A DNA stretch of 64,000 nt from assembly GCA_016699615.1 (NCBI GenBank), contig CP064984.1, positions 2,383,855 through 2,447,854 of the forward strand, in the 5' to 3' direction. Source of the DNA: Sphingobacteriales bacterium (GTDB lineage: Bacteria; Bacteroidota; Bacteroidia; Chitinophagales; JADIYW01). Numbering within the stretch: position 1 is the first letter of the stretch; each line of letters starts with the position of its first letter. Shown here in pieces: positions 1 to 52,025 of this stretch. The translations under genes were made by a program, and so were the position numbers. The notes beneath the pieces are model-generated. The model saw only the letters and a program-made list of their open reading frames with translations. It had not been told where the DNA came from and searched no databases.

Positions 1-3000
1 CAGTGGTAATGTATACACAGCATTAGCAGATGGTTGTATTGCGATTACAAGAAGTGGCGTAGTAGGTTACAACTTAGATACCTTATGTATAGTTAAGACA
101 GATACAGTAACAGGTATCAGTGATACAACAGTAGCAATTATCAGCAACTTACCGAAACGTGATACCATTAGAGATACAAATGTTATCATCACGACAGATA
201 CAGTATGTGTAGAAGTAGAGTTAGGCATGAATGCCGACAGTATCTACATCGTAGACTGTGCAGGTTCGATGAACAACAGTGGTAATGTATACACAGTAAT
301 ACCAGGCACAACATGTATCGTAGTAGATAGAAGCAATAAAGTAGGCTATAACTTAGATACATTATGTGTAGTAACAGTAGATACAACGACAGGTATTACA
401 GATACGACAGTAGTTATCATCAGTAATACACCGACAAGAGATACGATCAGAGATACGAATGTTATCTATACAACAGACACAATATGTGCTAGTATAGATA
501 ATGGTATGAGTAATATCAGAACAACGATAGTAGACTGTGCAGGAGCGATGAACAATAGTGGCAATGTATATACAGCGTTAACAGATGGTTGTATTGCGAT
601 TACAAGAAGTGGCGTAGTAGGTTACAACTTAGATACCTTATGTATCGTTAAGACAGATACTGTAACAGGCATCAGTGATACAACAGTAGCGATTATCAGT
701 AATCTACCTAAGCGCGATACGATTAGAGATACGAATGTTATCATCACGACAGACACAGTATGTGTAGATGTAGAGTTAGGCATGAATGCCGACAGTATCT
801 ACATAGTAGACTGTGCAGGCGCGATGAACAACAGTGGTAATGTATACACAGTTATCCCAGGTACGACATGTATCGTAGTAGATAGAAGCAATAAAGTAGG
901 CTATAACTTAGATACATTATGTGTAGTAACAGTAGATACAACGACAGGCATAACAGATACGACAGTAGTTATCATCAGTAATACACCGACACGTGATACG
1001 ATCAGAGATACGAATGTTATCTATACAACAGACACAATATGTGCTAGCATAGATAATGGTATGAGTAATATCGTAACGACGATAGTAGACTGTGCAGGCG
1101 CGATGAACAACAGTGGTAATGTATACACAGCGTTAGCAGATGGCTGTATTGCTATTACAAGAAGTGGCGTAGTAGGCTACAACTTAGATACCTTATGTAT
1201 CGTTAAGACAGATACTGTAACAGGCATCAGTGATACAACAGTAGCGATTATCAGTAATCTACCTAAGCGCGATACGATTAGAGATACGAATGTTATCATC
1301 ACGACAGACACAGTATGTGTAGATGTAGAGTTAGGCATGAATGCCGACAGTATCTACATCGTAGACTGTGCAGGCGCGATGAACAACAGTGGTAATGTAT
1401 ACACAGTTATCCCAGGTACGACATATATCGTAGTAGATAGAAGCAATAAAGTAGGCTATAACTTAGATACATTATGTGTAGTAACAGTAGATACAACGAC
1501 AGGCATAACAGATACGACAGTAGTTATCATCAGTAATACACCGACACGTGATACGATCAGAGATACGAATGTTATCTATACAACAGACACAATATGTGCT
1601 AGCATAGATAATGGTATGAGTAATATCGTAACGACGATAGTAGACTGTGCAGGCGCGATGAACAACAGTGGTAATGTATACACAGCGTTAGCAGATGGCT
1701 GTATTGCTATTACAAGAAGTGGCGTAGTAGGCTACAACTTAGATACCTTATGTATCGTTAAGACAGATACTGTAACAGGCATCAGTGATACAACAGTAGC
1801 GATTATCAGTAATCTACCTAAGCGCGATACGATTAGAGATACGAATGTTATCATCACGACAGACACAGTATGTGTAGATGTAGAGTTAGGCATGAATGCC
1901 GACAGTATCTACATAGTAGACTGTGCAGGTTCGATGAACAACAGTGGTAATGTATACACAGTTATCCCAGGTACGACATGTATCGTAGTAGATAGAAGCA
2001 ATAAAGTAGGCTATAACTTAGATACATTATGTGTAGTAACAGTAGATACAACGACAGGCATAACAGATACGACAGTAGTTATCATCAGTAATACACCGAC
2101 ACGTGATACGATCAGAGATACGAATGTTATCTATACAACAGACACAATATGTGCTAGCATAGATAATGGTATGAGTAATATCGTAACGACGATAGTAGAC
2201 TGTGCAGGCGCGATGAACAACAGTGGTAATGTATACACAGCGTTAGCAGATGGCTGTATTGCTATTACAAGAAGTGGCGTAGTAGGTTACAACTTAGATA
2301 CCTTATGTATAGTTAAGACAGATACAGTAACAGGCATCAGTGATACAACAGTAGCAATTATCAGTAATCTACCTAAGCGCGATACGATTAGAGATACGAA
2401 TGTTATCATCACGACAGATACAGTATGTGTAGATGTAGAGTTAGGCATGAATGCCGACAGTATCTACATCGTAGACTGTGCAGGAGCGATGAACAACAGT
2501 GGCAATGTATACACAGTTATCCCAGGTACGACATGTATCGTAGTAGATAGAAGCAATAAAGTAGGCTACAACTTAGATACTTTATGTGTAGTAACAGTAG
2601 ATACAACGACAGGCATTACAGATACGACAGTAGTAATTATTAGTAATACACCGACAAGAGATACGATCAGAGATACGAATGTTATCTATACGACAGACAC
2701 AATATGTGCGAGCATAGATAATGGTATGAGTAATATCGTAACGACGATAGTAGACTGTGCAGGTGCGATGAACAACAGTGGTAATGTATACACAGCATTA
2801 GCAGATGGTTGTATTGCGATTACAAGAAGTGGCGTAGTAGGTTACAACTTAGATACCTTATGTATCGTTAAGACAGATACCGTAACAGGCATCAGTGATA
2901 CAACAGTAGCAATTATCAGTAACTTACCGAAACGTGATACTATTAGAGATACAAATGTTATCATTACGACAGATACAGTATGTGTAGATGTAGAGTTAGG

Positions 3001-6000
3001 CATGAATGCAGACAGTATCTACATAGTAGACTGTGCAGGTTCGATGAACAACAGTGGTAATGTATACACAGTTATCCCAGGTACGACATGTATCGTAGTA
3101 GATAGAAGCGATAAAGTAGGTTACAACTTAGATACATTATGTGTAGTAACAGTAGATACAACGACAGGTATTACAGATACGACAGTAGTAATTATTAGTA
3201 ATACACCGACAAGAGATACTATCAGAGATACGAATGTTATCTATACGACAGACACAATATGTGCGAGCATAGATAATGGTATGAGTAATATCGTAACGAC
3301 GATAGTAGACTGTGCAGGTGCGATGAACAACAGTGGTAATGTATACACAGCATTAGCAGATGGTTGTATTGCGATTACAAGAAGTGGCGTAGTAGGTTAC
3401 AACTTAGATACCTTATGTATAGTTAAGACAGATACAGTAACAGGTATCAGTGATACAACAGTAGCAATTATCAGCAACTTACCGAAACGTGATACCATTA
3501 GAGATACAAATGTTATCATCACGACAGATACAGTATGTGTAGAAGTAGAGTTAGGCATGAATGCCGACAGTATCTACATCGTAGACTGTGCAGGTTCGAT
3601 GAACAACAGTGGTAATGTATACACAGTAATACCAGGCACAACATGTATCGTAGTAGATAGAAGCAATAAAGTAGGCTATAACTTAGATACATTATGTGTA
3701 GTAACAGTAGATACAACGACAGGTATTACAGATACGACAGTAGTAATTATTAGTAATACACCGACAAGAGATACGATCAGAGATACGAATGTTATCTATA
3801 CAACAGACACAATATGTGCTAGTATAGATAATGGTATGAGTAATATCAGAACAACGATAGTAGACTGTGCAGGAGCGATGAACAATAGTGGCAATGTATA
3901 TACAGCGTTAACAGATGGTTGTATTGCGATTACAAGAAGTGGCGTAGTAGGTTACAACTTAGATACCTTATGTATCGTTAAGACAGATACTGTAACAGGC
4001 ATCAGTGATACAACAGTAGCGATTATCAGTAATCTACCTAAGCGCGATACGATTAGAGATACGAATGTTATCATCACGACAGATACAGTATGTGTAGAAG
4101 TAGAGTTAGGCATGAATGCCGACAGTATCTACATCGTAGACTGTGCAGGTTCGATGAACAACAGTGGCAATGTATACACAGTAATACCAGGCACAACACT
4201 ATCGTAGTAGATAGAAGCAATAAAGTAGGCTATAACTTAGATACATTATGTGTAGTAACAGTAGATACAACGACAGGTATTACAGATACGACAGTAGTAA
4301 TTATTAGTAATACACCGACAAGAGATACGATCAGAGATACGAATGTTATCTATACAACAGACACAATATGTGCTAGCATAGATAATGGTATGAGTAATAT
4401 CGTAACGACGATAGTAGACTGTGCAGGCGCAATGAACAACAGTGGCAATGTATACACAGCATTAGCAGATGGTTGTATTGCTATTACAAGAAGTGGCGTA
4501 GTAGGTTACAACTTAGATACCTTATGTATCGTTAAGACAGATACTGTAACAGGCATCAGTGATACAACAGTAGCGATTATCAGTAATCTACCTAAGCGCG
4601 ATACGATTAGAGATACGAATGTTATCATCACGACAGATACAGTATGTGTAGATGTAGAGTTAGGCATGAATGCCGACAGTATCTACATCGTAGACTGTGC
4701 AGGTTCGATGAACAACAGTGGTAATGTATACACAGTAATACCAGGCACAACATGTATCGTAGTAGATAGAAGCAATAAAGTAGGCTATAACTTAGATACA
4801 TTATGTGTAGTAACAGTAGATACAACGACAGGTATTACAGATACGACAGTAGTTATCATCAGTAATACACCGACAAGAGATACGATCAGAGATACGAATG
4901 TTATCTATACAACAGACACAATATGTGCTAGTATAGATAATGGTATGAGTAATATCAGAACAACGATAGTAGACTGTGCAGGAGCGATGAACAATAGTGG
5001 CAATGTATATACAGCGTTAACAGATGGTTGTATTGCGATTACAAGAAGTGGCGTAGTAGGTTACAACTTAGATACCTTATGTATCGTTAAGACAGATACT
5101 GTAACAGGCATCAGTGATACAACAGTAGCGATTATCAGTAATCTACCTAAGCGCGATACGATTAGAGATACGAATGTTATCATCACGACAGATACAGTAT
5201 GTGTAGAAGTAGAGTTAGGCATGGATGCTGACAGTATCTACATCGTAGACTGTGCAGGCGCGATGAACAACAGTGGCAATGTATACACAGTTATCCCAGG
5301 CACGACATGTATCGTAGTAGATAGAAGCGATAAAGTAGGCTATAACTTAGATACATTATGTGTAGTAACAGTAGATACAACTACAGGTATTACAGATACA
5401 ACAGTAGTAATCATTAGTAATACACCGACACGTGATACGATCAGAGATACGAATATTATCTATACGACAGACACAATATGTGCTAGCATAGATAATGGTA
5501 TGAGTAATATCGTAACGACGATAGTAGACTGTGCAGGCGCGATGAACAACAGTGGTAATGTATACACAGCGTTAGCAGATGGCTGTATTGCTATTACAAG
5601 AAGTGGCGTAGTAGGCTACAACTTAGATACCTTATGTATCGTTAAGACAGATACTGTAACAGGCATCAGTGATACAACAGTAGCGATTATCAGTAATCTA
5701 CCTAAGCGCGATACGATTAGAGATACGAATGTTATCATCACGACAGACACAGTATGTGTAGATGTAGAGTTAGGCATGAATGCCGACAGTATCTACATCG
5801 TAGACTGTGCAGGCGCGATGAACAACAGTGGTAATGTATACACAGTTATCCCAGGTACGACATGTATCGTAGTAGATAGAAGCAATAAAGTAGGCTATAA
5901 CTTAGATACATTATGTGTAGTAACAGTAGATACAACGACAGGCATAACAGATACGACAGTAGTAATTATTAGTAATACACCGACACGTGATACGATCAGA

Positions 6001-9000
6001 GATACGAATGTTATCTATACAACAGACACAATATGTGCTAGCATAGATAATGGTATGAGTAATATCGTAACGACGATAGTAGACTGTGCAGGCGCGATGA
6101 ACAACAGTGGTAATGTATACACAGCGTTAGCAGATGGCTGTATTGCTATTACAAGAAGTGGCGTAGTAGGCTACAACTTAGATACCTTATGTATCGTTAA
6201 GACAGATACTGTAACAGGCATCAGTGATACAACAGTAGCGATTATCAGTAATCTACCTAAGCGCGATACGATTAGAGATACGAATGTTATCATCACGACA
6301 GACACAGTATGTGTAGATGTAGAGTTAGGCATGAATGCCGACAGTATCTACATAGTAGACTGTGCAGGTTCGATGAACAACAGTGGTAATGTATACACAG
6401 TTATCCCAGGTACGGCATGTATCGTAGTAGATAGAAGCAATAAAGTAGGCTATAACTTAGATACATTATGTGTAGTAACAGTAGATACAACGACAGGCAT
6501 AACAGATACGACAGTAGTTATCATTAGTAATACACCGACACGTGATACGATCAGAGATACGAATGTTATCTATACAACAGACACAATATGTGCTAGCATA
6601 GATAATGGTATGAGTAATATCGTAACGACGATAGTAGACTGTGCAGGCGCGATGAACAACAGTGGTAATGTATACACAGCGTTAGCAGATGGCTGTATTG
6701 CTATTACAAGAAGTGGCGTAGTAGGCTACAACTTAGATACCTTATGTATCGTTAAGACAGATACTGTAACAGGCATCAGTGATACAACAGTAGCGATTAT
6801 CAGTAATCTACCTAAGCGCGATACGATTAGAGATACGAATGTTATCATCACGACAGATACAGTATGTGTAGATGTAGAGTTAGGCATGAATGCCGACAGT
6901 ATCTACATCGTAGACTGTGCAGGCGCGATGAACAACAGTGGTAATGTATACACAGTTATCCCAGGTACGACATGTATCGTAGTAGATAGAAGCAATAAAG
7001 TAGGCTATAACTTAGATACATTATGTGTAGTAACAGTAGATACAACGACAGGTATTACAGATACGACAGTAGTAATTATTAGTAATACACCGACAAGAGA
7101 TACGATCAGAGATACGAATGTTATCTATACAACAGACACAATATGTGCTAGCATAGATAATGGTATGAGTAATATCGTAACGACGATAGTAGACTGTGCA
7201 GGAGCAATGAACAACAGTGGCAATGTATACACAGCATTAGCAGATGGTTGTATTGCTATTACAAGAAGTGGCGTAGTAGGTTACAACTTAGATACCTTAT
7301 GTATCGTTAAGACAGATACTGTAACAGGCATCAGTGATACAACAGTAGCGATTATCAGTAATCTACCTAAGCGCGATACGATTAGAGATACGAATGTTAT
7401 CATCACGACAGATACAGTATGTGTAGATGTAGAGTTAGGCATGAATGCAGACAGTATCTACATAGTAGACTGTGCAGGTTCGATGAACAACAGTGGTAAT
7501 GTATACACAGTTATCCCAGGTACGACATGTATCGTAGTAGATAGAAGCGATAAAGTAGGTTACAACTTAGATACATTATGTGTAGTAACAGTAGATACAA
7601 CGACAGGTATTACAGATACGACAGTAGTAATTATTAGTAATACACCGACAAGAGATACTATCAGAGATACGAATGTTATCTATACGACAGACACAATATG
7701 TGCGAGCATAGATAATGGTATGAGTAATATCGTAACGACGATAGTAGACTGTGCAGGTGCGATGAACAACAGTGGTAATGTATACACAGCGTTAGCAGAT
7801 GGTTGTATTGCGATTACAAGAAGTGGCGTAGTAGGTTACAACTTAGATACCTTATGTATAGTTAAGACAGATACAGTAACAGGTATCAGTGATACAACAG
7901 TAGCAATTATCAGCAACTTACCGAAACGTGATACCATTAGAGATACAAATGTTATCATCACGACAGATACAGTATGTGTAGAAGTAGAGTTAGGCATGAA
8001 TGCCGACAGTATCTACATCGTAGACTGTGCAGGTTCGATGAACAACAGTGGTAATGTATACACAGTAATACCAGGCACAAACATGTATCGTAGTAGATAG
8101 AAGCAATAAAGTAGGCTATAACTTAGATACATTATGTGTAGTAACAGTAGATACAACGACAGGTATTACAGATACGACAGTAGTAATTATTAGTAATACA
8201 CCGACAAGAGATACGATCAGAGATACGAATGTTATCTATACAACAGACACAATATGTGCTAGTATAGATAATGGTATGAGTAATATCAGAACAACGATAG
8301 TAGACTGTGCAGGAGCGATGAACAATAGTGGCAATGTATATACAGCGTTAACAGATGGTTGTATTGCGATTACAAGAAGTGGCGTAGTAGGTTACAACTT
8401 AGATACCTTATGTATCGTTAAGACAGATACTGTAACAGGCATCAGTGATACAACAGTAGCGATTATCAGTAATCTACCTAAGCGCGATACGATTAGAGAT
8501 ACGAATGTTATCATCACGACAGATACAGTATGTGTAGAAGTAGAGTTAGGCATGAATGCCGACAGTATCTACATCGTAGACTGTGCAGGTTCGATGAACA
8601 ACAGTGGCAATGTATACACAGTAATACCAGGCACAACATGTATCGTAGTAGATAGAAGCAATAAAGTAGGCTATAACTTAGATACATTATGTGTAGTAAC
8701 AGTAGATACAACGACAGGTATTACAGATACGACAGTAGTAATTATTAGTAATACACCGACAAGAGATACGATCAGAGATACGAATGTTATCTATACAACA
8801 GACACAATATGTGCTAGCATAGATAATGGTATGAGTAATATCGTAACGACGATAGTAGACTGTGCAGGCGCAATGAACAACAGTGGCAATGTATACACAG
8901 CATTAGCAGATGGTTGTATTGCTATTACAAGAAGTGGCGTAGTAGGTTACAACTTAGATACCTTATGTATCGTTAAGACAGATACTGTAACAGGCATCAG

Positions 9001-9615
9001 TGATACAACAGTAGCGATTATCAGTAATCTACCTAAGCGCGATACGATTAGAGATACGAATGTTATCATCACGACAGATACAGTATGTGTAGATGTAGAG
9101 TTAGGCATGAATGCCGACAGTATCTACATCGTAGAGGGTGCAGGTTCGATGGACAACAGTGGTAATGTAGACACAGTAGGACCAGGCACAACGTGTATGG
9201 TAGTAGAGAGAAGCAGGAAAGTAGGCTAGAACTGAGATACATTATGTGTAGTAACAGTAGATGCAACGACAGGTATTACAGATACAACAGTAGTAATCAT
9301 TAGTAATACACCAAGCAGAGATACGATCAGAGATACGAATGTTATCTATACAACAGACACAATATGTGCGAGCATAGATAATGGTATGAGTAATATAGTA
9401 ACGACGATAGTAGACTGTGCAGGTTCGATGAACAACAGTGGCAATGTATACACAGCATTAGAAGATGGCTGTATTGCGATTACAAGAAGTGGCGTAGTAG
9501 GCTACAACTTAGATACCTTATGTATCGTTAAGACAGATACAACGACAGGCATCAGTGATACAACAGTAGCGATTATCTCTAACTTACCAAACTGTAAAGA
9601 TATCATTAGAGATAC
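1..9615 (+). repeat. Coding tandem array, at least 17 units of 555 bp (279-bp A subrepeat + 276-bp B subrepeat), continuing past the left edge
   Basis: ATGAATGCCGACAGT recurs at 227, 782, 1337, 1892, 2447, 3002, 3557, 4112, 4666, 5221, 5776, 6331, 6886, 7441, 7996, 8552 and 9107. The B subrepeat (ATGAGTAATATC) lies 279 nt after each. Units are near-identical and the last one degenerates at ~9600. Confidence 0.95.
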
Positions 9616-11806
9616 AGTATTACCATGTAGAGGAGAAGAGGAAGTAGCTTATTGTTTACCATTAGATATGAAAACATTACAACAATACCATATTTACATA
9701 GATGGTACAAAACAAGCAATGGCATTTAGTTCATTAAGTGGTTGTGGTGAAGAGGAAGTAGCTGGTGGTTATAGCTTTAATGCTAATCAATACCTAGATG
9801 GTGTAGGGCATATATTAGAGCGTTGGGGTATAGATAGTAATAGAACTTTATCACCAAATATCAGCTTTACAACATTAGAAGAGTTAGTAGTGTATATGAA
9901 TAGTGTAGATGCTCAAGGCATGTGGTATGCAGAAGATATGATAATCAAAGCAGGTAATCCAAGCAGATTGTATAATACAGGAATAGGACTACAAATCTTT
10001 GCATTAGATCCAAGAGTTGGAACATTCATAAATGAATACAATAGCTATGTTACCTATACAGGAAGTAAATTAATGCTTGATAGAGGTTGTCATATGGTTG
10101 TGTTAGAAGATACAATAACAGGCTGTGTAGACAGTGCTCTAATTTGTGTAGAATGTGTAGAATGTGATAGCATAATAGAAGAGACTTATGTTGAAGTGCC
10201 TTGTGTAAATGGAGAAGGTCAATACTGTTTACCAATTGCATTTGTAGATTTAACAAACTACAATGTTTATATTGATGAGACAAGATTGAATACATTTGAT
10301 ATGAGTGGCTGTGATTATGATACAACAGCAGGGTATGACTTCAGTACACATATCTTATCAGGAGGTTATAACAATGGTGTATTACACAGATTAGATAGTG
10401 TTAGAATAAATGGAGTAAAATATGGTGCATTTAGCTATACATCTTACACTGAGTTAGTAGCTTACTTAAATAGCATAGATCCATTAGGAGCATGGGTAGT
10501 AGATGGAGATAGAGTAGCAGGTGGTCGCCGAGGAGGCATATATGGCGATATGCGTATCTTAAGTACAAATACAGGTGTAAGACATACGGTAGGATACAAT
10601 ATCAATGAATTACCTAAAGGTAGTGAGGTTATCATTCCATCAGGCTGTCATTGGGTAGTAGTAGAGGGCAAGGAGAGTGGCTGTAGAGATAGTGTTCGAG
10701 TATGTGTAGTAGGCTGTACAGTTAAAGATACGATCAGAGACACGACATGTTATAACTGTCCAGTACCAGTATGTGTAGACACAACAGAGTTACCAGGTAC
10801 AGTAATTAGTATTACAACATGTGATACGGATAACAAAGTAACGATAGATGGCTTGAATCCATGTATAACATACACACCATCAAAAGGACAAACAGGTAAT
10901 GATACGACATGTATAGTAGTATGTGATGACAAAGGCTACTGCGATACAACGATTATCATCATTACTGTAGAGACACCAAGAGACACGATAAGAGATAGCT
11001 TACCAGTGAATAGCGTAGATAGTATTTGTGATTTCTTACAACCACGAGGAACAGACATCACAGTAACGAGCTGTGCAGGTCAGACCTCAGGAACAGGAAA
11101 TTACATCACATGGACTATCAACGAGCAAGGTTGCTTAGTATACACAGCAGGTAAAGTAAAAGGTACAGATACCTTATGTATTATGAGCTGCATTACAGGC
11201 ACAGATACATGTATAGAGACTACAGTTTATGTAACCGTAACAGGTATACCACCGATAGCAATTAATAATGACACAACAACGAAAGTTAATGTACCAGTAG
11301 TTATAAATGTTATAGGCAATGATATCCAGACAGACAGTGATCCATTACAATTATGTGATGATGCTATAGTTACATACCCAGTAAATGGAACATTAAGTAA
11401 TATCAATACACCATCAGGAAATGTGACTTATACACCAAATACAGACTTTACAGGAGTAGACAGCTTCCAATATGTGATATGTGATCCAGATGGTAATGAT
11501 ACAGCATGGGCATATGTAAGAATAGTAAGAGAAAATGAGTGTGAGTTGTATGATGCTTTCTCACCGAATGGCGATGGAGTAAATGATTACTATACGATAC
11601 CATGTCCAAGTTCAAGTGCGATAGTATTCTGTGTGTACAACAGATGGGGCATAGAGGTTTACAGAAATGAGGATTACCGAGGCGAGTGGGATGGTAGATA
11701 CAAAGGTGCACCACTTCCAGATGGTACATACTACTATGTTATCAAGTATATAAACAGTGCAGGAGATGATATTAATAAAGCAGGGTTTATCGTTATACAT
11801 AGATAA
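2..11806 (+). pseudogene. Giant T9SS-dependent (type-B CTD) repeat surface protein / adhesin-like, 5' end outside window; ORF broken by 1-nt indels near 4199 and 8080 and by TAG/TGA stops at 9227-9235
   Basis: Frame 2 is open from nt 2. The four ORF-track pieces (227-4207, 4090-8100, 8276-9229, 9386-11806) encode the same 93+92-aa repeat and join seamlessly if the lesions are repaired. The unique C-terminal region has Cys-rich Ig/cadherin-like modules (an ..INNDTTTKVNVPVVINVIGND..DSFQYVICD.. tandem-95-like module) and ends in a CHU_C/T9SS type-B sorting domain. Confidence 0.85.
11531..11803 (+). other. T9SS type-B C-terminal sorting domain (gliding-motility-associated CTD / CHU_C) of the giant protein
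   Basis: The terminal 91 aa are ENECELYDAFSPNGDGVNDYY...YNRWGIEVY...WDGRYKGAPLPDGTYYYVIKY...GFIVIHR. This matches the FSPNGDGxND / NRWG / WDG / G.Y.Y signature of type-B CTDs. Confidence 0.85.
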
Positions 11807-11822
11807 GATGATATAAAGAGAT

Positions 11823-11848
11823 GGTGGTAGTCAAACATTGCTACCACC
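11823..11848 (+). terminator. Weak hairpin after the giant gene (GGTGGTAG-loop-CTACCACC), poor T tract
   Basis: An 8-bp perfect stem lies 17 nt after the stop codon. Downstream is TTATCTCC, not a clear U tract. Confidence 0.3.
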
Positions 11849-11924
11849 TTATCTCCGAAAAGGAATAAAAAGGTAAACACAGATTCAGCTCAAAAAAGAT
11901 AAATAAAAAGCAAAAGTAAAAATC

Positions 11925-12929
11925 ATGATAAGATTAAATCAAATGAGGATAACAGTTGTAGCGATGTTGTTATTAATGACATCGATGCTGTATGGCCAAC
12001 AGGAGCCTCAGTACACCCAATACATGTACAATAAGTTGCCTATGAATGCTGGTTACACAGGCTCACGCGAGGTATTAAGTATCCGCGCCTTGTATCGCAA
12101 TCAGTGGGCAGGCATCAAGGGTGCACCACAGACAGCGACGTTTGCCATTCATAGTCCATTGAAGAAGGAATCCTCAGCGATAGGTTTCTATTTAGTCAAT
12201 GACAGACTAGGCGTTACAAACCAGACATGGTTTGATGCTAGCTATGCCTATAGAGTAAACTTAGGCAAAGGCGTTAAGTTGAGTTTAGGAATAAATGCAG
12301 GTATATTGTGGTACAAGAGTAATCTAACAGACTTAAACATAGAAAATCAACAGGATGTAGTTTTTCAGCAGAATGTAAGTAGAATACTACCAGATGTAGG
12401 CGCAGGTTTATATTTATACCATAAATATTGGTATTTTGGAGCAAGTGTACCAAACTTTATCAAAGGCGATTTACACAATAAGGATGTTATCAAAGCTTAT
12501 GCTAATGATAATACAGGGAGTTTTCTAAGTGCACACCGTACACCACATTTTATTACCATGGCAGGAGGCGTAATACCAGCAGGCAAGGTATTAAAAATAC
12601 GTCCACAGATGATGTACAGATATATAGCCAGTGCGGAGCAGAAGATACCCCATACCTTAGATTTTAACTTGAGTTTATTGATTTATGATAGAGTGAATAT
12701 AGGCGGAAGCTACAGAACATCATTCCACAATAAGAAGACAGGCTTAACGAACAGTGATAGCTTTGATGCTTTATTAGAAGTATGGCCAACGAAGCAGTTA
12801 TTGATAGGATTTGCGTATGATTATACACTAACGAAATTAGGAGATTACAACAAAGGAAGCTATGAGGTTATCTTAGGCTATGATTTTAATTTTGAGAAGA
12901 AACGAGTAATAACGCCGAGATATTTTTAA
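11925..12929 (+). CDS. Type IX secretion system membrane protein, PorP/SprF family
   Basis: Signal peptide followed by the QQEPQYTQYMYNKLPMNAGYTGS motif and ...LYRNQWAGIKGAPQT..., typical of the PorP/SprF N-terminus. It sits immediately downstream of a type-B CTD cargo gene. Confidence 0.88.
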   Translation: MIRLNQMRITVVAMLLLMTSMLYGQQEPQYTQYMYNKLPMNAGYTGSREVLSIRALYRNQWAGIKGAPQTATFAIHSPLKKESSAIGFYLVNDRLGVTNQTWFDASYAYRVNLGKGVKLSLGINAGILWYKSNLTDLNIENQQDVVFQQNVSRILPDVGAGLYLYHKYWYFGASVPNFIKGDLHNKDVIKAYANDNTGSFLSAHRTPHFITMAGGVIPAGKVLKIRPQMMYRYIASAEQKIPHTLDFNLSLLIYDRVNIGGSYRTSFHNKKTGLTNSDSFDALLEVWPTKQLLIGFAYDYTLTKLGDYNKGSYEVILGYDFNFEKKRVITPRYF

Positions 12930-12983
12930 AAGAAGAAGAAGAAAAACAATAAAACTTACCCAAGCAAGGAAAAAGTAAAATAT

Positions 12984-15523
12984 ATGAATACAATCAAACA
13001 GCTTAAACGTCAGATATTGCTAGTGCTATTACTAATGGTTATAGGAGTTTCTAGTATAGACGCACAGGTTATCGAAGGAGGCACATCAGGAGCAGGTACC
13101 ACAGTAGGAGGTATAGGCAAAGCCCAGAAGTTGTATAATGATTTAGCTTACTATGAAGCGATACCATTATATGAGAGTTATCTAAAGAAGCACGATAGCA
13201 CAAGAGCGATGTGTGAGCTAGGCGATTGCTACCGATTAACCTCAAACTTTGAGCGTGCAGAATATTGGTATGGCAAGGCAGTAGAGAAAGGCGATGTAGA
13301 ACCGGAGTATAAGTTATACTATGCAAAGATGTTGCAGGCGAATGAGAAATACGAAGAAAGCAAAATGGTATGCTACCTACAAACAGAGTGTTCCAGAAGA
13401 CAAGAGAGCAGGCAATCAGTTAAAAGCGAGTGCAGATTATGGACAGTACTTATTAACGAGAGATAGATATCAGATAAAGAATTTAAGTTTTAATACTTCG
13501 GGTTATGATTTTGCACCCATGTGGTTTGAGAAAGGACTAGTCTATTCTAGTTCTCGAGACAGTTCAAAGGCAATAGGAAGAGAACACACATGGACAGGCA
13601 CACAGTTTTTTGATATGTATTATGTAGAAGGCGAGAAGACGACCTTTGGCAAGCCAAAACAGATGAAAGCAGATGCATCGACAAAATACCACGAAGCAGC
13701 AGCTACCTTTACCCCAGACAATAAGAAAGTATATTTTACGAGAAACAATTATTATCATGGTAAGGCAAAGACGAGTGATGATAAGATAATCAAATTAAAG
13801 ATATTTGAGTCAGATGTAGAAGGTACGACATGGAAGAATGACAAACCATTCCAATACAACAATGATGAATATAGTGTAGGACATCCAGCACTTACACCAG
13901 ATGGTAATACGATGTATTTTATTAGCGATATGCCAGGTGGCTATGGAGGCACAGATGTTTATATTACAAAGAAAGAAGGCGAAAGCTGGAGCACACCCAA
14001 GAACTTAGGCGAGCAGATCAATACAGAAGGCATGGAGATGTTCCCGTATGTATCTGAAGATGGTGTACTATATTTTGCTAGTGATGGACATGGTGGCTTA
14101 GGCGGATTGGATATCTTTAGAGTAAAGCCAGATGCTAAGACAAATCAATATGGTAAGATCAGAAATATAGGCGCACCAATCAATAGTAGTTATGATGATT
14201 TTAGCTTAGTATATGGACAAGACAAGTCAGTAGGTTATTTTACCTCAAACAGACCAGAAGGGCAAGGCTTAGATGATATCTATAGTTTTGAGGATGATGG
14301 TATTTACTTAGAAGGAATTGTAGTAGATGCAAAGACAGGCGAGCCGATATGCAACAGTAAAGTTATAATGAAGGCAAAGCTGACACAGAGTGAAGAAGGA
14401 AGAATGGAAACGGAGTGTGATGGCGAGTTTGAGTTTGGCGTAGTAAGAAACATGGATTATTGTTTTGTTGCGAGCGCAGAAGGATATAGTAGCAATGACA
14501 AAGTATGTGCTACGACAAAAGGTGTAAAAGCAGGCGAGACGGTATATGTAAAAATACCATTAGATAAAGGACAAGAGTATGCTATGAGTGTACAGGTCTT
14601 GGGCAAGAGCTTAAAATCATTACAAAATAAGAGTATAGATAGCAAGAGTCCAACATCACCGAAGAGTATAGACAGCAAGAATATAGAAAACAAAGATATA
14701 GAGAATAAGAGCATAGATAGCAAAAAGTCCAACATCACCAAAGAGTATAGACAGCAAAAGTCCAGAAGACTTAAAGCCACTAGCAGGAGCAAAGATACTA
14801 TTGTCTAGCAAGTGTGAAGGCTGGACCAAAGCGTTGGTAGCAGATGAGAATGGTAAGATATGCGAGATAGTAAGATGTGATTGTGATTATATCATAGTTG
14901 CCAATGCACAAGGCTATTTGCCAGGCTATACAGAAGTTATCAAAGATGATGGCGATTGTAAGATAGACAGAAAGTGTGGAGTAAATCCAAGAGAAGAAGA
15001 AGTAATCTTAGATCCAATACCAGGCATGCCAGATGGCTATGTCTATGATCCAGAGACAGGTAAGTGGGTAGATCCAAAGACAGGCGATCAGATGGATGCG
15101 CCAAGTATAGAATTGAGAGACATTTACTATGACTTTGATAAATGGTACATAAGAGAGGAGAGTGAGCGAGACTTGAATAAGTTATTAGGTTTCTTGCAAG
15201 AGAATCCAGAAGCAATAGTTGAGATAGGCTCACACACAGATGCGAGAGCGCCGTATGATTACAATATCAAGTTATCACAACGCAGAGCACAAAGTGTAGT
15301 AGATTGGTTGATAGCGAGAGGCATTAGTAGAAATAGATTAAAACCAAAAGGATATGGCGAGACAAAGCCAGTGAATGGCTGTACAGATGGAGTAGTATGT
15401 ACGGAGTATGAACACCAGAGAAACAGAAGAACAGAGTTTAAGGTCATAGGTGGTAAATTTGATATTAGCTCACTACAAAGATTTGATATGCAAGTGGATC
15501 CGTGTAAACAATGTCCATTCTAA
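12984..15523 (+). pseudogene. PorE-like OmpA-family protein (TPR + TolB/PD40-like beta-propeller + CRD-like + OmpA_C), split into three ORFs by frameshifts at A-runs near 13362 and 14722
   Basis: ORFs 12984-13466, 13321-14808 and 14801-15523 are contiguous parts of one protein. It has N-terminal TPR, PD40-type repeats (..TPDGNTMYFISD..GGLGGLDIFRV) and a C-terminal OmpA_C (..GSHTDARAPYDYNIKLSQRRAQSVVDWL..NRRTEFKV). Confidence 0.8.
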
Positions 15524-15678: not shown

Positions 15679-17396
15679 ATGTCAAATACATATTCAAACA
15701 ATAAGATATCTGGTTCAGAAGCAGTCATTCGTTCATTAGTAGAAGAAGGAATTGATTATATATATGGATATCCAGGTGGAGCAATTATGCCAATATATGA
15801 TGCACTATGGCATTATTCTGATAAAATTACACATATTCTAACAAGACACGAACAAGGCGCAACACATGCAGCAGAAGGTTATGCAAGAGTAAAGGGAAAA
15901 GCAACAGCAGTTTTTGCTACTTCTGGTCCAGGTGCAACAAATTTAGTTACAGGCATAGCAGATGCAATTATGGATTCAACACCAATGGTTTGTATTACTG
16001 GTCAGGTACCAAAACATCTTTTAGGTACTGATGCATTTCAGGAAACAGATGTCGTAGGCATTACAATGCCAATTGTAAAGTGGAATTATCAAGTAACTAA
16101 TGCAGCAGAAATTCCAGCAATTATTGCAAAAGCATTTTATATAGCCAATACAGGCAAACCAGGTCCAGTTTTAATTGATATTACAAAAAATGCACAGTTT
16201 GAGATGATGGAATGGAGTGGATATGAGAAGTGCGAATCTGTAAGAGCATATGATGCAAAACCAGTTATTAATATTGAGAAAATAAAACAGGCAATGCAGT
16301 AATTAATGCAGCAAAGAAACCATTGATAGTTGCTGGTCAAGGTGTAATTATTTCTAAAGCAAAAATAGAATTAGAAGCATTATCTGAAAAATCTGGTATT
16401 CCAGTTTGCTTAACGATGCAAGGCTTAGGTGCTTTTAATCCAAAAGATAAAAACTTTGTAGGCATTCCAGGTATGCATGGCAATTATTCAGTAAATATAA
16501 AAATGAATGAATGTGATGTAATGATTGCCATAGGTATGCGTTTTGATGATAGAGTAACTGGCGATGTGACAAAATTTGGAAAACAAGCTAAAATTGTTCA
16601 TATTGAAATAGACCCAGTTGAGATTGATAAAGTTTTAAAAACTGAAGTTGGTGTATTAGGTGATGCAAAAGAAGTTTTAGAACAATTATTACCATATATT
16701 AATGAAAATAATCATCAAGGATGGATAAATAGTTTCAAAGAATTAGATAAAGCAGAATTGGACAAAGTAATAGATACTGCCATTCATCCAAAAACTGGTG
16801 GTATAAAAATGGGCGAAATCATGCATTTGATTGATGAAAAAACAAATGGAAACGCAATCATAGTTCCAGATGTTGGACAACATCAGATGTATGCCATGCG
16901 ATATTATACATATAATTTGCCAAACTCTTGGGTAAGTAGTGGTGGATTAGGTACAATGGGATTTTCATTGCCAGCAGCAATTGGTGCGCAAATGGCAGCA
17001 CCAGAGAGAACAGTGGTAGCAATAATAGGAGATGGCTGTTTCCAAATGACGATACAAGAATTAGGCACAATTTGGCAACAAAAATTACCAATCAAAATAG
17101 TGATTTTCAATAATAATTATTTGGGAATGGTAAGGCAATGGCAACAATTATTCTTTGATAATAGATACTCGCAAGTAGAATTAAAAAATCCAGATTTTGT
17201 TGCAATTTCAAAAGGATTTGGTATAGCATCATCTAAAGTAGCTGAAAGAGAAAACTTGAGTGCTGCGTTAGATGAAATGTTTGCACATGATGGACCATAT
17301 GTTTTGGAAGTTACAGTAGAGAAGGAAGAAAATTTATTTCCGATGGTGCCAAGTGGCGCAGCATGTAGTGATGTGATTTTAGAACCAGCACAATAA
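15679..17396 (+). pseudogene. ilvB: Acetolactate synthase large subunit (ThDP-dependent), split by a frameshift near 16298
   Basis: N-terminal piece is [32 protein letters not shown]. The frame-0 continuation [16 protein letters not shown] begins at ~16299. The C-terminal piece has GGLGTMGFSLPAAIGA and IGDGCFQM. Confidence 0.85.
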
Positions 17397-37869: not shown

Positions 37870-38202
37870 TTATAAAAACCCAAGTTCTAATTTTGCTTCT
37901 TCAGTCATCATATCTTGATCCCAAGGTGGGTCGAAAAGTAATTTCAACATTGCAACTTCATTTACGCCATCAATTGCTTTTATTTTTTGCTCTACTTCAG
38001 CTGGCAAACTTTCTGCTGCTGGACAGTTTGGTGCTGTTAATGTCATTAATATATGCACGTCATTGTTTAGATTTACGTTTATTTCGTAGATTAATCCTAA
38101 TGCATATATATTTACTGGAATTTCTGGATCGTAGATAGTTTGTATCTGAGTGATACATTCGTCTTTAATTTCCATAAAAGTTTTATTTAATACATTTTCC
38201 AT
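37870..38202 (-). CDS. Fe-S assembly protein, DUF59/SufT (MIP18) family
   Basis: ..IYDPEIPVNIYALGLIY..MTLTAPNCPAAE.. is the hallmark DUF59 motif. Confidence 0.8.
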   Translation of the reverse strand: MENVLNKTFMEIKDECITQIQTIYDPEIPVNIYALGLIYEINVNLNNDVHILMTLTAPNCPAAESLPAEVEQKIKAIDGVNEVAMLKLLFDPPWDQDMMTEEAKLELGFL

Positions 38203-39590: not shown

Positions 39591-40810
39591 TTAACTCAAC
39601 ATTTTTTTTGCTTTTAAAATTCCATCATACAATAAATCTATTTCTTCTTTCGTATTATAAAACGCAAAAGATGCTCTCGTGTTCCTGGTATAGAATAAAA
39701 ATCCATCACTGGTTGCGCACAATGGTGTCCTGTTCTGATGGCAATGCCCATATTGTCTAAAATAACGCCAACATCATACGGATGAATACCATCTAACAAA
39801 AATGAAATAACAGATGATTTATTTGTTGCTGTACCATAAATTTTTAATCCATCTATTGATGATAATTTCTCTGTGGCATATTGCAATAATTCGTCTTCGT
39901 ATTTTTTTATATTTTCTAAACCTAAATTTTCTATATATTCTATTGTTGCGTTAAGTGCAATGCAGCCAGCAATATTTGGTGTTCCAGCTTCAAACTTAAA
40001 TGGCAAATCATTAAAAACTGTACCTTTGAATGATACAGATTTTATCATATCTCCACCACCTTCAAATGGTGGTATTTCGTTTAGTATATCTTCTTTTCCA
40101 TATAATATTCCAGTACCTGTTGGTCCATAAATTTTATGGCCACTAAATGCTAAAAAATCACAATCTAATGCTTGAACATCAATTGAAATATGTTGTATAG
40201 CTTGTCTTGCATCTATCAATATTTTCGCATTATTTTTTTTAGCTATCGCAATAATTTCTCTTATTGGATTGATAGTACCTAATGCATTAGATACATACGT
40301 AATTGATACTAATTTTGTTTTTGTTGTAATGATTTTTTCTGCATCTTCAATTTTAATACTACCATCTTCTTGCAATGGAATTACTTTTAAGATACATTTT
40401 TTTTCTTCGCACAGCATTTGCCATGGCACAATATTAGAATGGTGTTCCATTTCTGTCACCACAATTTCATCACCTTCATGAATAAATTTTTTACCAAAAG
40501 TATAGGCAATCAAATTTATACTATTTGTTGTACCTTTTGTAAATATTATTTCGTGCTCATGTTTTGCATTGATAAATTGTTGAACTTTTTTCCTTGTTTG
40601 TTCGTATAAATCTGTGCCAATTTGCGATAGGTAATGCACACCACGATGTATGTTTGCATTTTGATGTTCGTAGAAATATGTTTCAGCATCAATTACTGCT
40701 TGTGGCTTTTGAGTTGATGCGCCATTGTCTAAATAAACAAGTTGCTTGCCACGAATTTTTTCATTTAATATTGGAAATTGATTTCTTATATGTTGTATGT
40801 CTAATGCCAT
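39591..40810 (-). pseudogene. sufS: Cysteine desulfurase SufS, with a frameshift about 30 codons from the C-terminus (~39671-39686)
   Basis: ..YLDNGASTQKP.., ..FSGHKIYGPTG.. (PLP Lys), ..RTGHHCAQP... The alternate frame gives the expected tail ..ASFAFYNTKEEIDLLYDGILKAKKMLS* ending at 39591. Confidence 0.88.
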
Positions 40811-48959: not shown

Positions 48960-50149
48960 ATGGAAAATGAAAAGCAGATAATTTATGTACTTACATTTAT
49001 GTGGTTCTGTGCTGTTGTAGACTTTATGCTGATGATGCCATTCGGTGCTGATTTTATGAATATCTATAGCATTCAGCCAAGTCAATTTAGTCTACTCATT
49101 TCTGCATATTCAATTGCTGCTGGTACTTCTGCATTTTTAGCTACATTATATATTGATAGATACGATAGAAAAAAAATATTAATGACTGCATTTTTTCTAT
49201 TTTCATTAGGTAGTATATTTTGCTCATTTGCTGCAAATTTTTATATGATGTTTGTCGCAAGATTCATCACTGGTGCATTTGGTGGAATACTAGGCTGCGT
49301 TACTATTGCTATTATTTCAGATTTAGTACCATTTAGTAGAAGAGGAAAAGCAATGGGCGTACTCAATATGGCTTTTGGTATGGCATCTATTGTAGGCATA
49401 CCGCTAGGTTTATTAATTAGTAAATATTCAGATGTGTTTTTCCCATTTAGAGTTATTGGTGTTCTAGGTTTAATTGTATTCTTTTTGCAAATAGAATTAT
49501 TCCATCATTAGAGAAATACATCAGACAAGAATCTAAAATTAAATTTAATGATATAAAAGATTTAGTATTAGATAAAAATATATTAAATGCATTAGTTTTA
49601 GTCTTCTTTTTAATTGTTGGACATTTTATGTTTATCTCATTTGTTAATCCATATCTAACAGAAAATTTAAAGTTTACTAAGAATGATACTACTTTAATGT
49701 ATGTTGTTGGTGGTTTGTGTGTTGCACTATCATCATCTTATGTTGGTATGCAAATAGACAAGATAGGAAAATATAAATCTTTTGTTATTCTAATCATTTT
49801 GTCATTTATTCCAATTTTGGCAATTGCACATTTACAAAGAGGCAGTTTAGTTTTGTCGCTTGTATTGTGCGCAATGTTGTTTGTATTTAGTTCAGGAAGA
49901 ATGATGGCAGCAATGACTTTATTAACAGGCGCACCAACAGAACAACAAAGGTCAAAGTTTTTAGCAATTCGTTCAGCAATTATTGAGTTTAGCGAAGGTA
50001 TTGCAGTATCTATAGGTGGATTAATTTTATCCAAAAACCAAGTAGACGGCACCATTGAAAATTATTCTATCTTAAGTTATATCACAGTTGTTGTTGGTAT
50101 TCTATGTATATTCTTAGCAAAAAGAGTAAAAATCAGAGAACAAGATTAA
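48960..50149 (+). pseudogene. MFS transporter, split by a frameshift at the T-run ~49482-49486
   Basis: Six TM segments in each half, with ..DRYDRKK.. between TM2 and TM3. The alternate frame bridges the two ORFs (..ANRIIPSLEKYIRQESKIKFNDIKD..GHFMFISF). Confidence 0.75.
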
Positions 50150-50280: not shown

Positions 50281-52025
50281 ATGTATAGATCGCATACTTG
50301 TGGAGAATTACGCATTTCTGATGTTGGCAAAGCAGTCCAATTATCAGGTTGGTTACAAACAACACGTAACTTTGGAGAACTTATCTTTTTAGATTTAAGA
50401 GATAGATATGGCATTACTCAGCTAGTATTCAATCGTGATAATAATCCAATTATTGCTGATAAAATCAAATACCTTGCAAGAGAATTTGTAATTCAAGCAG
50501 AAGGAAAAGTTGTAGAACGTTCTAATAAAAATCCTAAAAATCCTACTGGAGATATCGAAATAATAGTTAATGATTTTAGAATTTTATCTGAGTCTAAAAC
50601 ACCACCATTTACTATAGAAAATGAAACCGATGGTGGCGATGATTTAAGAATGCAATACAGGTATTTAGATTTAAGAAGGGGAGAAGTACAAGAAAAAATT
50701 ATGTTCAGACATAAAGTTGGACATGAAGTGCGTACATACTTAAATGCTAACGGATTTTTAGATATAGAAACACCATTTCTAATAAAATCTACACCAGAAG
50801 GTGCAAGAGATTTCGTGGTGCCAAGTAGGATGAATCCAGGACAATTTTATGCATTACCACAATCACCTCAAACTTTCAAACAATTATTGATGGTTTCAGG
50901 ATTTGATAAGTATTATCAAATTACAAGATGTTTTAGAGACGAAGACTTGCGTGCAGATAGACAACCAGAGTTCACACAAATAGACTGCGAAATGGCATTT
51001 GTAGAGCAAGAAGATATTTTAAATATGTTCGAAGGTTTAATTAAACACGTTTTCAAAACAGTAAAAAATATTGATTTGCCAGAATTCCCACGTATGCAAT
51101 ACGATGATGCTATGAAATTATATGGCAGCGATAAGCCAGATATTCGTTTCGGAATGCAATTCGTAGAAATGAATGACATTGTAAAAGGAAAAGGATTTGG
51201 TGTTTTTGATAATGCAGAATTAGTCATTGGTATTAATGCAGAAAATTGTGCAGAGTTTACACGCAAACAATTAGATGAATTAACAGATTTTGTAAAACGT
51301 CCACAAATTGGAGCAACAGGCTTAATTTATTTAAGATATAATTCTGATGGCACTTTAAAATCTTCAGTAGATAAATTTTATAATGAAGATGAATTGAAAA
51401 AATGGGCAGATGCAGCACAGATGAAACAAGGCGATTTGTTGTTGGTACTATGTGGTAATACAGACAAAGTACGTAAGCAAATGAATGAGTTGCGATTAGA
51501 AATGGGCAACCGTCTTGGATTGAGAGATAAAAACGTATTCAAACCATTGTGGGTATTAGACTTTCCATTGTTAGAATACATAGAAGAAGATAATCGTTGG
51601 TTTGCAATGCACCATCCATTTACATCACCAAAAAAAGAAGACATAGAATTTTTATATACTGATCCAGCTCGTGTGCGTGCAGATGCATATGATTTAGCAA
51701 TTAATGGTGTAGAAGTTGGCGGTGGTTCTATAAGAATTTTCGACAAGCAGCTACAAGCAAAAATGTTTGAACGTTTAGGATTTACAGATGAAGAAGCACA
51801 AAAACAATTTGGCTTCTTAATGAATGCATTTGAATACGGTGCACCACCACATGCGGCTTAGCATTTGGTTTCGATAGATTATGTGCTGTAATGAATGGCG
51901 TAGACTCTATTAGAGATTATATTGCATTTCCAAAAAATAACTCAGGCAGAGATGTAATGTTAGATGCACCAAGCACCATAGACGAAAAACAGATGAAAGA
52001 GCTGAATATAAAGACTATGGTGTAG
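50281..52025 (+). pseudogene. aspS: Aspartate--tRNA ligase, frameshift at ~51853 (GG read as G)
   Basis: Class II motifs (..[18 protein letters not shown]..). The ORF ends ..YGAPPHAA*, while the alternate frame gives the canonical ..[30 protein letters not shown].. Confidence 0.92.

What the first reader, a model, noticed from the sequence alone, without database searches (positions are those of the whole stretch)
9136..9263. Cluster of 14 substitutions in 128 nt, every one of them to G, creating two in-frame stops
The unit starting at 9107 is otherwise identical to its paralogue at 4666, but it differs at 14 positions. All 14 become G on the + strand. T-to-G occurs at 9137, 9170, 9180, 9208, 9216, 9229 and 9234. 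A-to-G occurs at 9152, 9179, 9193, 9215 and 9263. C-to-G occurs at 9136 and 9199. These changes destroy a conserved Cys (VDCAG becomes VEGAG) and create TAG (9227-9229) and TGA (9233-9235). A one-directional spectrum from three different bases is not what ordinary divergence, deamination or DGR mutagenesis produces. It is what a 'dark-cycle equals G' base-calling artefact of two-colour chemistry, or a poorly supported read end, would give. If real, it would be an unusual strand-specific hypermutation patch.
Basis: partly seen in the sequence, partly recalled or inferred. Interest (0 to 1): 0.55.

Follow-up and report, generated by a model that had tools for sequence, protein, structure and literature searches.

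The report
All-to-G error patch in repeat gene
A 128-base stretch in the last repeat of a giant bacterial adhesin gene carries 14 changes, all to G, that break the gene; this is most likely a consensus or polishing error in an error-prone long-read metagenome assembly, not biology.

Summary
In an alignment of all 18 copies of the 555-bp repeat, the copy at 8882-9436 has 14 private substitutions in 9136-9263. All 14 are to G, and they create TAG 9227-9229 and TGA 9233-9235.

The most likely cause is technical.
- The window is GenBank MAG sequence (Sphingobacteriales bacterium, IPK18 locus tags, 2.99-Mb contig). It is probably from the Aalborg Nanopore R9.4.1 and Illumina activated-sludge set.
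- Compared with independent short-read assemblies, the window has about one private indel per 4 kb. These break at least four conserved genes and sit largely in homopolymers and in ACATGT and GCNGC motifs.
- The bases hit by the G changes (A5, T7, C2) follow local composition.
- 10 of the 11 affected codons change the protein. Reverting the 14 bases restores one 1177-aa ORF.
- An independent contig and a paralogous locus in the same genome both carry the non-G state.

I could not identify the step that introduced the Gs. The two-colour explanation is unverified, and the probable source project reports four-colour HiSeq X. A real strand-specific mutation cluster is not excluded (about 7%).

The parts
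9136..9263 (+). The patch: 14 private substitutions, all to G on the + strand (C>G x2, T>G x7, A>G x5), with no indels.
9227..9229 (+). In-frame TAG made by T>G at 9229. It ends the deposited ORF QQR97444.1.
9233..9235 (+). In-frame TGA made by T>G at 9234.
8882..9436 (+). The last full 555-bp double unit of the array, which holds the patch. Apart from the Gs, 8882-9285 is identical to 4441-4844. 9286-9436 is the diverged terminal part.
4695..4822 (+). The paralogous stretch that shows the unchanged (ancestral) state of the patch.
1..9577 (+). Tandem array of 17.25 double units (279 + 276 nt). Same-type units are 92-100% identical. The array continues upstream of the window.
8276..11806 (+). 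One 1177-aa reading frame once the 14 Gs are reverted. It is deposited as two proteins, 8276-9229 (QQR97444.1) and 9386-11806 (QQR97445.1; Big_9/cadherin-like and CHU_C type IX secretion domains).
7771..9285 (+). Near-perfect 1.5-kb copy of 3332-4844: 1 ordinary mismatch, 2 indel-type errors and the 14 Gs. The patch lies in its last 150 nt.
4197..4200 (+). Private TG>C (-1) at an ACATGT motif. It splits ORF 227-4207 from ORF 4090-8100. This is a long-read type consensus error.
8077..8079 (+). Private extra A (AA>AAA) directly 5' of the ACATGT motif. It splits ORF 4090-8100 from ORF 8276-9229.

Best explanation
The 14 Gs are an error in the deposited consensus of a hybrid (Nanopore plus Illumina) metagenome-assembled genome. 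They are not mutations in the organism.

The true sequence of 9136-9263 is almost certainly that of the other repeat copies. In that case 8276-11806 is the intact 3' part of one giant (about 4,550 aa) type-IX-secreted repeat adhesin gene.

Inferred mechanism. Something overwrote about 14% of the non-G positions of one stretch shorter than 150 nt with G, regardless of the original base. That stretch sits in a sequence present 18 or more times in the genome. There, correct short reads align equally well or better to error-free paralogous copies, so polishing cannot repair the error and can even introduce it.

There are two candidate steps, and I cannot separate them:
(a) one poor short read, with G called at failed cycles, written into the consensus by the last (Racon) polishing round at locally minimal depth;
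(b) a local failure of the long-read consensus or neural polisher that short reads then could not correct.

Shown: the pattern, its uniqueness, its destructive effect, the non-G state elsewhere, and the general error load of this assembly. Inferred: the provenance, and the step at which the Gs entered.
For: 1. Provenance and error load.
- The window's proteins are QQR97442-QQR97480, locus tags IPK18_*, 'MAG: Sphingobacteriales bacterium', on a 2,986,948-bp contig.
- Compared with independent short-read assemblies covering about 44 kb of the window outside the array, there are 56 private differences, including about 11 indel events.
- These indels break an OmpA-family gene, a 572-aa TPP enzyme, a 396-aa MFS transporter and a 581-aa AspRS that are intact elsewhere.
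- They fall in homopolymers (14722, 15591, 49481, 59679), in GCNGC (13359, 16293, 51852; substitutions at 39946 and 40206) and in ACATGT (39677-9; 9808/9812 by substitution).
- All three frameshifts that split the giant gene lie at the same ACATGT of the repeat unit.
- This matches the R9.4.1 / CANU / Racon / medaka / Racon-Illumina pipeline of PMC8012365.

2. Spectrum.
- 14 of 14 changes are to G.
- The source bases A5, T7, C2 compare with 6.9, 4.6, 2.5 expected from composition (p = 0.40). The overwrite is therefore blind to the original base.

3. No sign of selection.
- Codon positions are 5, 3 and 6.
- 10 of 11 affected codons are non-synonymous, 2 of them nonsense, and a conserved Cys is lost.
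- Reverting the 14 bases gives one 1177-aa ORF with no internal stop.

4. The non-G state is found elsewhere.
- Contig L001 (GCA_035909615.1) is identical to the window over 9353-9807, which contains the bases that set the terminal unit apart from the other repeat copies and, at the protein level, from the paralogous locus. It reads through the patch with the non-G base at all 14 sites and an open frame.
- The paralogous locus IPK18_05250 in the same genome has the unchanged peptide.
- So do all the other roughly 20 units of the gene.

5. Shape.
- The patch has substitutions only, no indels, and spans 128 nt, less than one 150-nt read.

6. Literature.
- Short-read polishing is unreliable in repeats (Polypolish abstract).
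- Most polishers introduce false changes at low depth (PMC11261834).
- Base-blind overcalling of G is a described sequencing failure (PMC13218037).
Against: - No reads were available, so support for the Gs was never measured.
- The link to PMC8012365 is inferred from the accession and locus-tag series, the habitat and the error profile. The MAG's row was not in the stored part of the supplement.
- If that link is right, the short reads were HiSeq X (four-colour). That platform has no 'no signal = G' rule, so route (a) loses its simplest cause.
- I know of no documented G-biased failure of medaka, Racon or CANU for route (b).
- A consensus from many reads should not inherit the errors of one read unless local depth was about 1.
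- The patch is a single case: there is no second all-to-G or all-to-C cluster in the array or in the 44 kb compared.
- It lies at the very end of a 1.5-kb near-perfect internal duplicate. That position is also where a recombination-linked mutation cluster would be expected.
Confidence: 0.85

Rival explanations
1. The patch is a real, single-event, strand-asymmetric mutation cluster. Error-prone repair synthesis at the end of a gene-conversion or duplication tract within the array would have put G on the + strand (or C on the - strand) opposite many template positions. Possible routes are a strong dGTP or 8-oxo-dGTP bias, or C insertion opposite abasic sites. The adhesin gene would have been inactivated very recently.
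For: The patch occupies the last 150 nt of a 1.5-kb near-perfect intra-array duplicate, 3332-4844 versus 7771-9285. All changes are on one strand. T>G, the largest class (7 of 14), is the change expected when 8-oxo-dGTP is incorporated into the new strand (textbook mutT signature, from my own knowledge).
Against: A hit rate of about 14% of non-G positions is orders of magnitude above any polymerase error rate I know. The source bases follow composition (p = 0.40) instead of a template-dependent spectrum. Bacteria have no Rev1-type dCMP transferase (my own knowledge). The assembly has many proven errors nearby. The only other contig that reads through this stretch (L001) and the paralogous locus of the same genome lack the Gs.
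Confidence: 0.07
2. The Gs are ordinary divergence of the terminal repeat unit, or sequence copied from or mixed with another repeat copy. The copying could be by gene conversion or by misaligned reads of the other subunit type.
For: The terminal unit is the most diverged copy, with 5 further private substitutions at 9313-9425.
Against: No copy in the window has G at any of the 14 sites. The other subunit type has G at only 1 of the 14 aligned sites. The direction is 14 of 14 to G (P about 2e-7), there are two stops, and no non-G change occurs inside 8641-9285.
Confidence: 0.01
3. The patch is diversity-generating-retroelement (DGR) mutagenesis of a variable repeat, templated by another copy.
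For: The target is a surface adhesin in a Bacteroidota genome with near-identical repeats that could look like a template/variable pair.
Against: DGR changes occur at template adenines only and go to any base. Here the changed bases are A, T and C on the + strand (T, A and G on the other), and all go to G. The changes include stop codons. No reverse transcriptase appeared among the neighbouring genes annotated; this was not a full scan of the window.
Confidence: 0.01
4. The Gs are Nanopore miscalls at methylated motifs, as seen elsewhere in this window.
For: 9193 turns ACATGT into ACGTGT. The same A>G at the same motif occurs at 39679, and the end of the upstream ORF IPK18_11290 implies it too.
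Against: The other 13 sites share no motif. The same sequences in the 16 other units are unaffected. T>G and C>G are not the usual methylation miscalls (my own knowledge). This can explain at most one of the 14 changes.
Confidence: 0.03

Closest known systems
G overcalling / poly-G artefact of Illumina two-colour sequencing
   Same: The replacement by G is blind to the original base, sits on one strand, involves substitutions only, and spans less than one read. G is called when no signal is seen (PMC13218037).
   Different: There is no poly-G run and no rise in density towards one end. The artefact is in an assembly consensus, not in a read. The probable source project used four-colour HiSeq X. 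The published subtle two-colour artefact favours T>G at NT[TG], but 6 of the 7 T>G changes here are followed by A, which is no more than composition predicts (p = 0.20).
Residual or introduced errors after short-read polishing of long-read assemblies in repeats
   Same: The patch sits in sequence present 18 or more times in the genome. The same assembly keeps uncorrected long-read indels in the array, in the duplicated locus and in unique genes elsewhere in the window. Polishing is known to be unreliable in repeats and at low depth.
   Different: Typical residual errors are homopolymer or motif indels, or bases borrowed from a paralogue. A one-directional cluster of 14 substitutions is not a described outcome.
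Strand-coordinated mutation clusters (kataegis-like; repair-associated hypermutation)
   Same: The changes form a dense cluster on one strand next to the edge of a recombination-like tract.
   Different: Known clusters change one base type (for example C in single-stranded DNA). They do not change three different bases into one (my own knowledge).
DGR variable regions
   Same: A near-identical repeat pair with clustered substitutions in a surface protein gene.
   Different: The changes are not adenine-specific, all go to one base, and include nonsense codons.

Membership tests
Two-colour 'dark cycle = G' read artefact | All erroneous calls are G on the strand of the read, whatever the true base. 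| tested here: met
   14 of 14 changes are to G. The source bases A5, T7, C2 fit local composition (p = 0.40).
Two-colour 'dark cycle = G' read artefact | The data were produced on a two-channel instrument (NextSeq, NovaSeq, MiniSeq). | tested here: inconclusive
   The probable source project reports HiSeq X 2 x 150 (PMC8012365), which is four-colour (PMC13218037). The link between this MAG and that project is inferred, not shown.
Two-colour 'dark cycle = G' read artefact | The errors are confined to one read length and consist of substitutions only. | tested here: met
   The span is 128 nt, with no indels against 16 paralogues.
Two-colour 'dark cycle = G' read artefact | G density rises towards the 3' end of the read, or there is a poly-G tail. 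| tested here: not met
   8 changes fall in the first half and 6 in the second. The longest new G run is 3.
Two-colour 'dark cycle = G' read artefact | The G calls have low read support and low base quality. | not testable with these tools
Long-read assembly with residual consensus errors | Private indels relative to independent assemblies, concentrated in homopolymers and recurrent motifs, that break conserved genes. | tested here: met
   About 11 indel events in about 44 kb. They fall in homopolymers, GCNGC and ACATGT and break at least 4 genes.
Long-read assembly with residual consensus errors | The affected site lies in repeated sequence, where short reads cannot be placed uniquely. | tested here: met
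   There are 17 double units in the window, plus a paralogous locus in the same genome.
DGR variable region | Mismatches to the template occur only at template adenines. | tested here: not met
   The changed bases are A (5), T (7) and C (2).
Gene conversion / paralogue mixing | A donor copy carrying the variant bases exists. | tested here: not met
   None of the 17 other units has the Gs. The other subunit type matches at 1 of 14 sites. The paralogous locus has the unchanged peptide.
Nanopore methylation-motif miscalls | The errors recur at one sequence motif. | tested here: not met
   Only 9193 lies in a recurrent error motif (ACATGT). The other 13 sites share none.

The most novel reading that the evidence does not exclude
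The Gs are real. In that case a single repair-synthesis event at the edge of a 1.5-kb intra-array gene conversion wrote G at about one in seven non-G positions of one strand over about 130 nt. That would be a mutational process with a base-blind N>G signature, unknown in bacteria. It would have just inactivated a giant type-IX-secreted adhesin gene.
Probability: 0.06. Interest if true: 0.75.

Novelty: not a real feature. Interest (0 to 1): 0.1.

Why it matters
The main consequence is for data quality.
- One GenBank MAG gene is annotated as five separate proteins (492, 1603, 1336, 317 and 806 aa) because of three motif-linked frameshifts and this G patch. Its true product is probably a single adhesin of about 4,550 aa.
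- A one-directional substitution cluster in a repeat of a hybrid assembly should be read as a polishing or consensus failure until reads say otherwise.
- If the same signature recurs in other MAGs of the same project, it would point to a specific pipeline step worth fixing.
- Only if reads confirmed the Gs would it become a biological finding, namely a new mutational signature.

Tried and rejected
1. I searched the G version of the patch (a 53-mer) in genome contigs and metagenome contigs and found nothing. This is uninformative. A 39-mer anchor from the unchanged part of the same terminal unit, which is present in L001, was also absent from both collections. Those collections therefore do not cover this stretch at all.

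2. A protein search with the 40-aa peptide encoded by the patch returned no candidates, for technical reasons in the word index. It did not even find the parent protein, so it gives no evidence either way.

3. I tried to confirm the MAG's row (size 2,986,948 bp, coverage) in Supplementary Data 3 of PMC8012365. The stored file is cut and the number is absent. A literature search for the locus tag and accessions found only unrelated hits.

4. I tested whether the Gs come from the other subunit type or a shifted register of the array. They do not: 1 of 14 sites matches.

5. I looked for a sequence context for the T>G changes. T followed by A occurs in 6 of 7 cases, which is not significant against composition (p = 0.20).

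6. I looked for a second all-to-G or all-to-C patch and found none. I used private substitutions in all 18 units, the 44 kb compared with other assemblies, and a G/C content scan. In that scan the G-richest 128-nt window outside the array starts at 14370; there other assemblies differ from the window at no position, so the high G is genuine.

7. ORFs on the opposite strand across the patch are short (65 aa or less) and give no alternative coding reading.

8. Pfam gives no credible family for the repeat unit. Only the C-terminal part has domains (Big_9, cadherin-like, CHU_C).

Full report
**1. The observation**

The stretch 9000-9500 and its proposed paralogue were read directly. A base-by-base comparison at offset 4441 shows perfect identity from 8641 to 9135. 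It then shows 14 differences in 9136-9263, every one a G in the downstream copy:
- C>G at 9136 and 9199;
- T>G at 9137, 9170, 9180, 9208, 9217, 9229 and 9234;
- A>G at 9152, 9179, 9193, 9216 and 9263.

Identity resumes up to 9285. From 9286 on there is ordinary mixed divergence. 'Otherwise identical' holds only up to 9285.

**2. The setting**

Window 1-9577 is a tandem array of 17.25 double units of 555 bp (279 + 276 nt). Same-type units are 92-100% identical.

In an alignment of all 18 units the 14 Gs are private to the unit at 8882. At 13 of the 14 sites all 16 other copies agree on one non-G base. No other unit has more than 4 private substitutions.

The probability that 14 substitutions all go to one stated base is about 2e-7. 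The probability of 14 or more private changes in 128 nt, at the rate seen in the other units, is about 6e-22. The cluster is real in the sequence and is not chance.

**3. Effect on coding**

The array and what follows form one gene.
- The C-terminal piece 9386-11806 has Big_9/cadherin-like domains and a CHU_C type IX secretion signal.
- It is followed by a PorP/SprF gene and an OmpA-family gene.
- The 14 changes hit codon positions 1, 2 and 3 five, three and six times.
- They alter 10 of 11 codons, remove a Cys that is conserved in every unit (VDCAG to VEGAG), and make TAG 9227-9229 and TGA 9233-9235.
- Reverting the 14 bases yields one uninterrupted 1177-aa frame, 8276-11806.

**4. Where the window comes from**

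Exact protein look-up identifies the ORFs as QQR97443.1 (4090-8100), QQR97444.1 (8276-9229, ending at the G-made TAG), QQR97445.1 (9386-11806) and their neighbours. They carry IPK18 locus tags from 'MAG: Sphingobacteriales bacterium' on a contig of 2,986,948 bp. The Gs are therefore in the public record and were annotated as they stand.

Several things point to the Aalborg activated-sludge MAG project (PMC8012365):
- the accession and locus-tag series;
- the single-contig MAG;
- the habitat of every related contig, which is activated sludge;
- the error profile described in section 5.

That project's methods are PromethION R9.4.1, Guppy flip-flop, CANU, one Racon round, two medaka rounds and a last Racon round with HiSeq X 2 x 150 reads. 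I could not find the MAG's own row in the stored, truncated supplement. The link is therefore an inference.

**5. This assembly is demonstrably error-prone**

Independent short-read contigs from other samples, fetched through identical neighbouring proteins, cover about 44 kb of the window outside the array at 99.2-99.97% identity.
- Positions where the window disagrees with all of them number 56, including about 11 indel events.
- These indels split genes that are intact elsewhere: the OmpA-family gene (12984-15523), a 572-aa TPP enzyme (15679-17396), a 396-aa MFS transporter (48960-50149) and a 581-aa AspRS (50281-51861).
- The errors sit in homopolymers and, notably, in two motifs of the other assemblies: GCNGC (13359, 16293, 39946, 40206, 51852) and ACATGT (9808/9812, 39677-39679).
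- The three frameshifts that cut the giant gene into separate deposited proteins all lie at the same ACATGT of the repeat unit: 4199, 8079, and the end of the upstream ORF.
- Motif-linked miscalls of this kind are typical of R9.4.1 consensus sequences of methylated DNA (my own knowledge).
- They show that short-read polishing repaired this region poorly.

**6. The non-G state elsewhere**

- Contig L001 (GCA_035909615.1, 7,064 bp) aligns to 8229-15291. It is identical to the window over 9353-9807, which holds the bases that distinguish this terminal unit from the other copies. The peptides those bases encode (IVTT, GSMNN, LEDG) also distinguish it from the paralogous locus.
- L001 reads through the patch in an open frame, with the non-G base at all 14 sites. 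Its array part may be partly collapsed, so it is supporting evidence rather than decisive.
- A paralogous locus in the same genome (IPK18_05250, 99% identical to the reverted query) carries the unchanged peptide.
- So do all the other units of the gene.
- The Gs are not borrowed from the other subunit type, which matches at only 1 of 14 sites.

**7. What the spectrum says**

Among the 100 non-G bases of the ancestral 128 nt (A 49, T 33, C 18), the hits are A 5, T 7, C 2. Composition predicts 6.9, 4.6 and 2.5 (p = 0.40). G therefore replaced whatever was there, at about 14% of positions.

Polymerase misincorporation, deamination, oxidative damage and DGR mutagenesis all depend on the template base, and DGR on adenine only. 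None gives this pattern. A 14% rate is also far above any polymerase error rate I know. A process that writes a default symbol fits better.

**8. Which technical step?**

The patch has no indels and spans 128 nt, less than one 150-nt read. That looks like short-read error rather than Nanopore error, and the last polishing step used short reads. Polishers are known to be unreliable in repeats and to introduce false changes at low depth.

Against this, the base-blind G rule belongs to two-colour chemistry. HiSeq X, the platform reported by the probable source project, is four-colour. The Gs also do not thicken towards one end.

The alternative is a local failure of the long-read consensus or the neural polisher. 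Short reads could then not repair it, because correct reads align better to the error-free identical copy at 4441-4844. I know of no documented G bias of those tools.

I therefore commit to 'consensus or polishing artefact' (0.85) and leave the step open.

**9. The rival that remains**

Segment 7771-9285 is a near-perfect copy of 3332-4844: one ordinary mismatch, two indel-type errors and the 14 Gs. The patch fills its last 150 nt. A real, single-event, strand-specific mutation cluster made during repair synthesis at the end of a conversion tract cannot be excluded without reads. I give it about 0.06-0.07. It would be remarkable if true.

**10. What led nowhere**

- The G 53-mer is absent from both large contig collections. 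So is an unchanged anchor from the same unit, so these negatives carry no weight.
- A 40-aa protein search failed technically.
- No second one-directional patch exists in the array or in the 44 kb compared.

**Verdict**

The artefact interpretation is supported in general but not in its specific two-colour form. This is not a real biological feature, with high but not complete confidence, and its interest is low.

Noticed in passing
window 1-11806 (+), continuing upstream of the window: One giant type-IX-secreted repeat adhesin gene is deposited as five proteins: IPK18_11290 (492 aa), QQR97442.1 (1603 aa), QQR97443.1 (1336 aa), QQR97444.1 (317 aa) and QQR97445.1 (806 aa), about 4,550 aa together. 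All three frameshifts between the pieces lie at the same ACATGT motif of the repeat unit (…PGT|RVS, …PGTT|LS, …PGT|NMYRSR).
   Followed up: partly
window 13359, 16293, 39946, 40206, 51852 (GCNGC); 4199, 8079, 9193, 9808/9812, 39677-39679 (ACATGT): Differences private to the window, relative to 3-7 independent short-read assemblies, concentrate in two motifs of those assemblies, GCNGC and ACATGT. This looks like methylation-linked Nanopore miscalling. It would imply GCNGC (m5C) and ACATGT or CATG (m6A) methyltransferases in this uncultured bacterium. I ran no statistical enrichment test.
   Followed up: partly
window 12984-15523, 15679-17396, 48960-50149, 50281-51861: Four conserved genes are split by private indels in this window but are intact in other assemblies: an OmpA-family protein (846 aa elsewhere), a TPP-dependent enzyme (572 aa), an MFS transporter (396 aa) and aspartyl-tRNA synthetase (581 aa).
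   Followed up: yes
window 3332-4844 and 7771-9285: There is a higher-order structure inside the array. Three consecutive double units recur 4.44 kb downstream with a single ordinary mismatch (3352/7791). This is either a very recent segmental duplication or conversion, or a product of assembling and polishing a 10-kb array.
   Followed up: partly
same genome, outside the window (IPK18_05250/05255; QQR98829.1, QQR98830.1, QQR98917.1): A second, shorter copy of the adhesin gene lies elsewhere in the genome. It has the same N-terminal-type and C-terminal regions and about 3 repeat units, and it is also frameshifted. Elsewhere in the genome there is also an identical PorP/SprF copy beside a C-terminal-domain fragment; I did not establish whether this is the same locus. 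This explains why short-read contigs of this species break at about 10633 and at the array edge.
   Followed up: partly
window 1-9577 (repeat unit, about 92 aa x 2): The roughly 92-aa repeat module (for example RDTIRDTNVIYTTDTICASIDNGMSNIVTTIVDCAGAMNNSGNVYTALADGCIAITRSGVVGYNLDTLCIVKTDTVTGISDTTVAIISNLPK) has no credible Pfam match. It is a Cys-containing, probably Ig-like adhesin repeat that has not been described as a family.
   Followed up: no
window 37918-37966: A dense cluster of 9 differences, including three extra bases in total, separates the window from three other assemblies within 49 nt, inside a small Fe-S assembly gene. The bases involved are mixed. It could be a messy consensus error or a real in-frame variant.
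   Followed up: no
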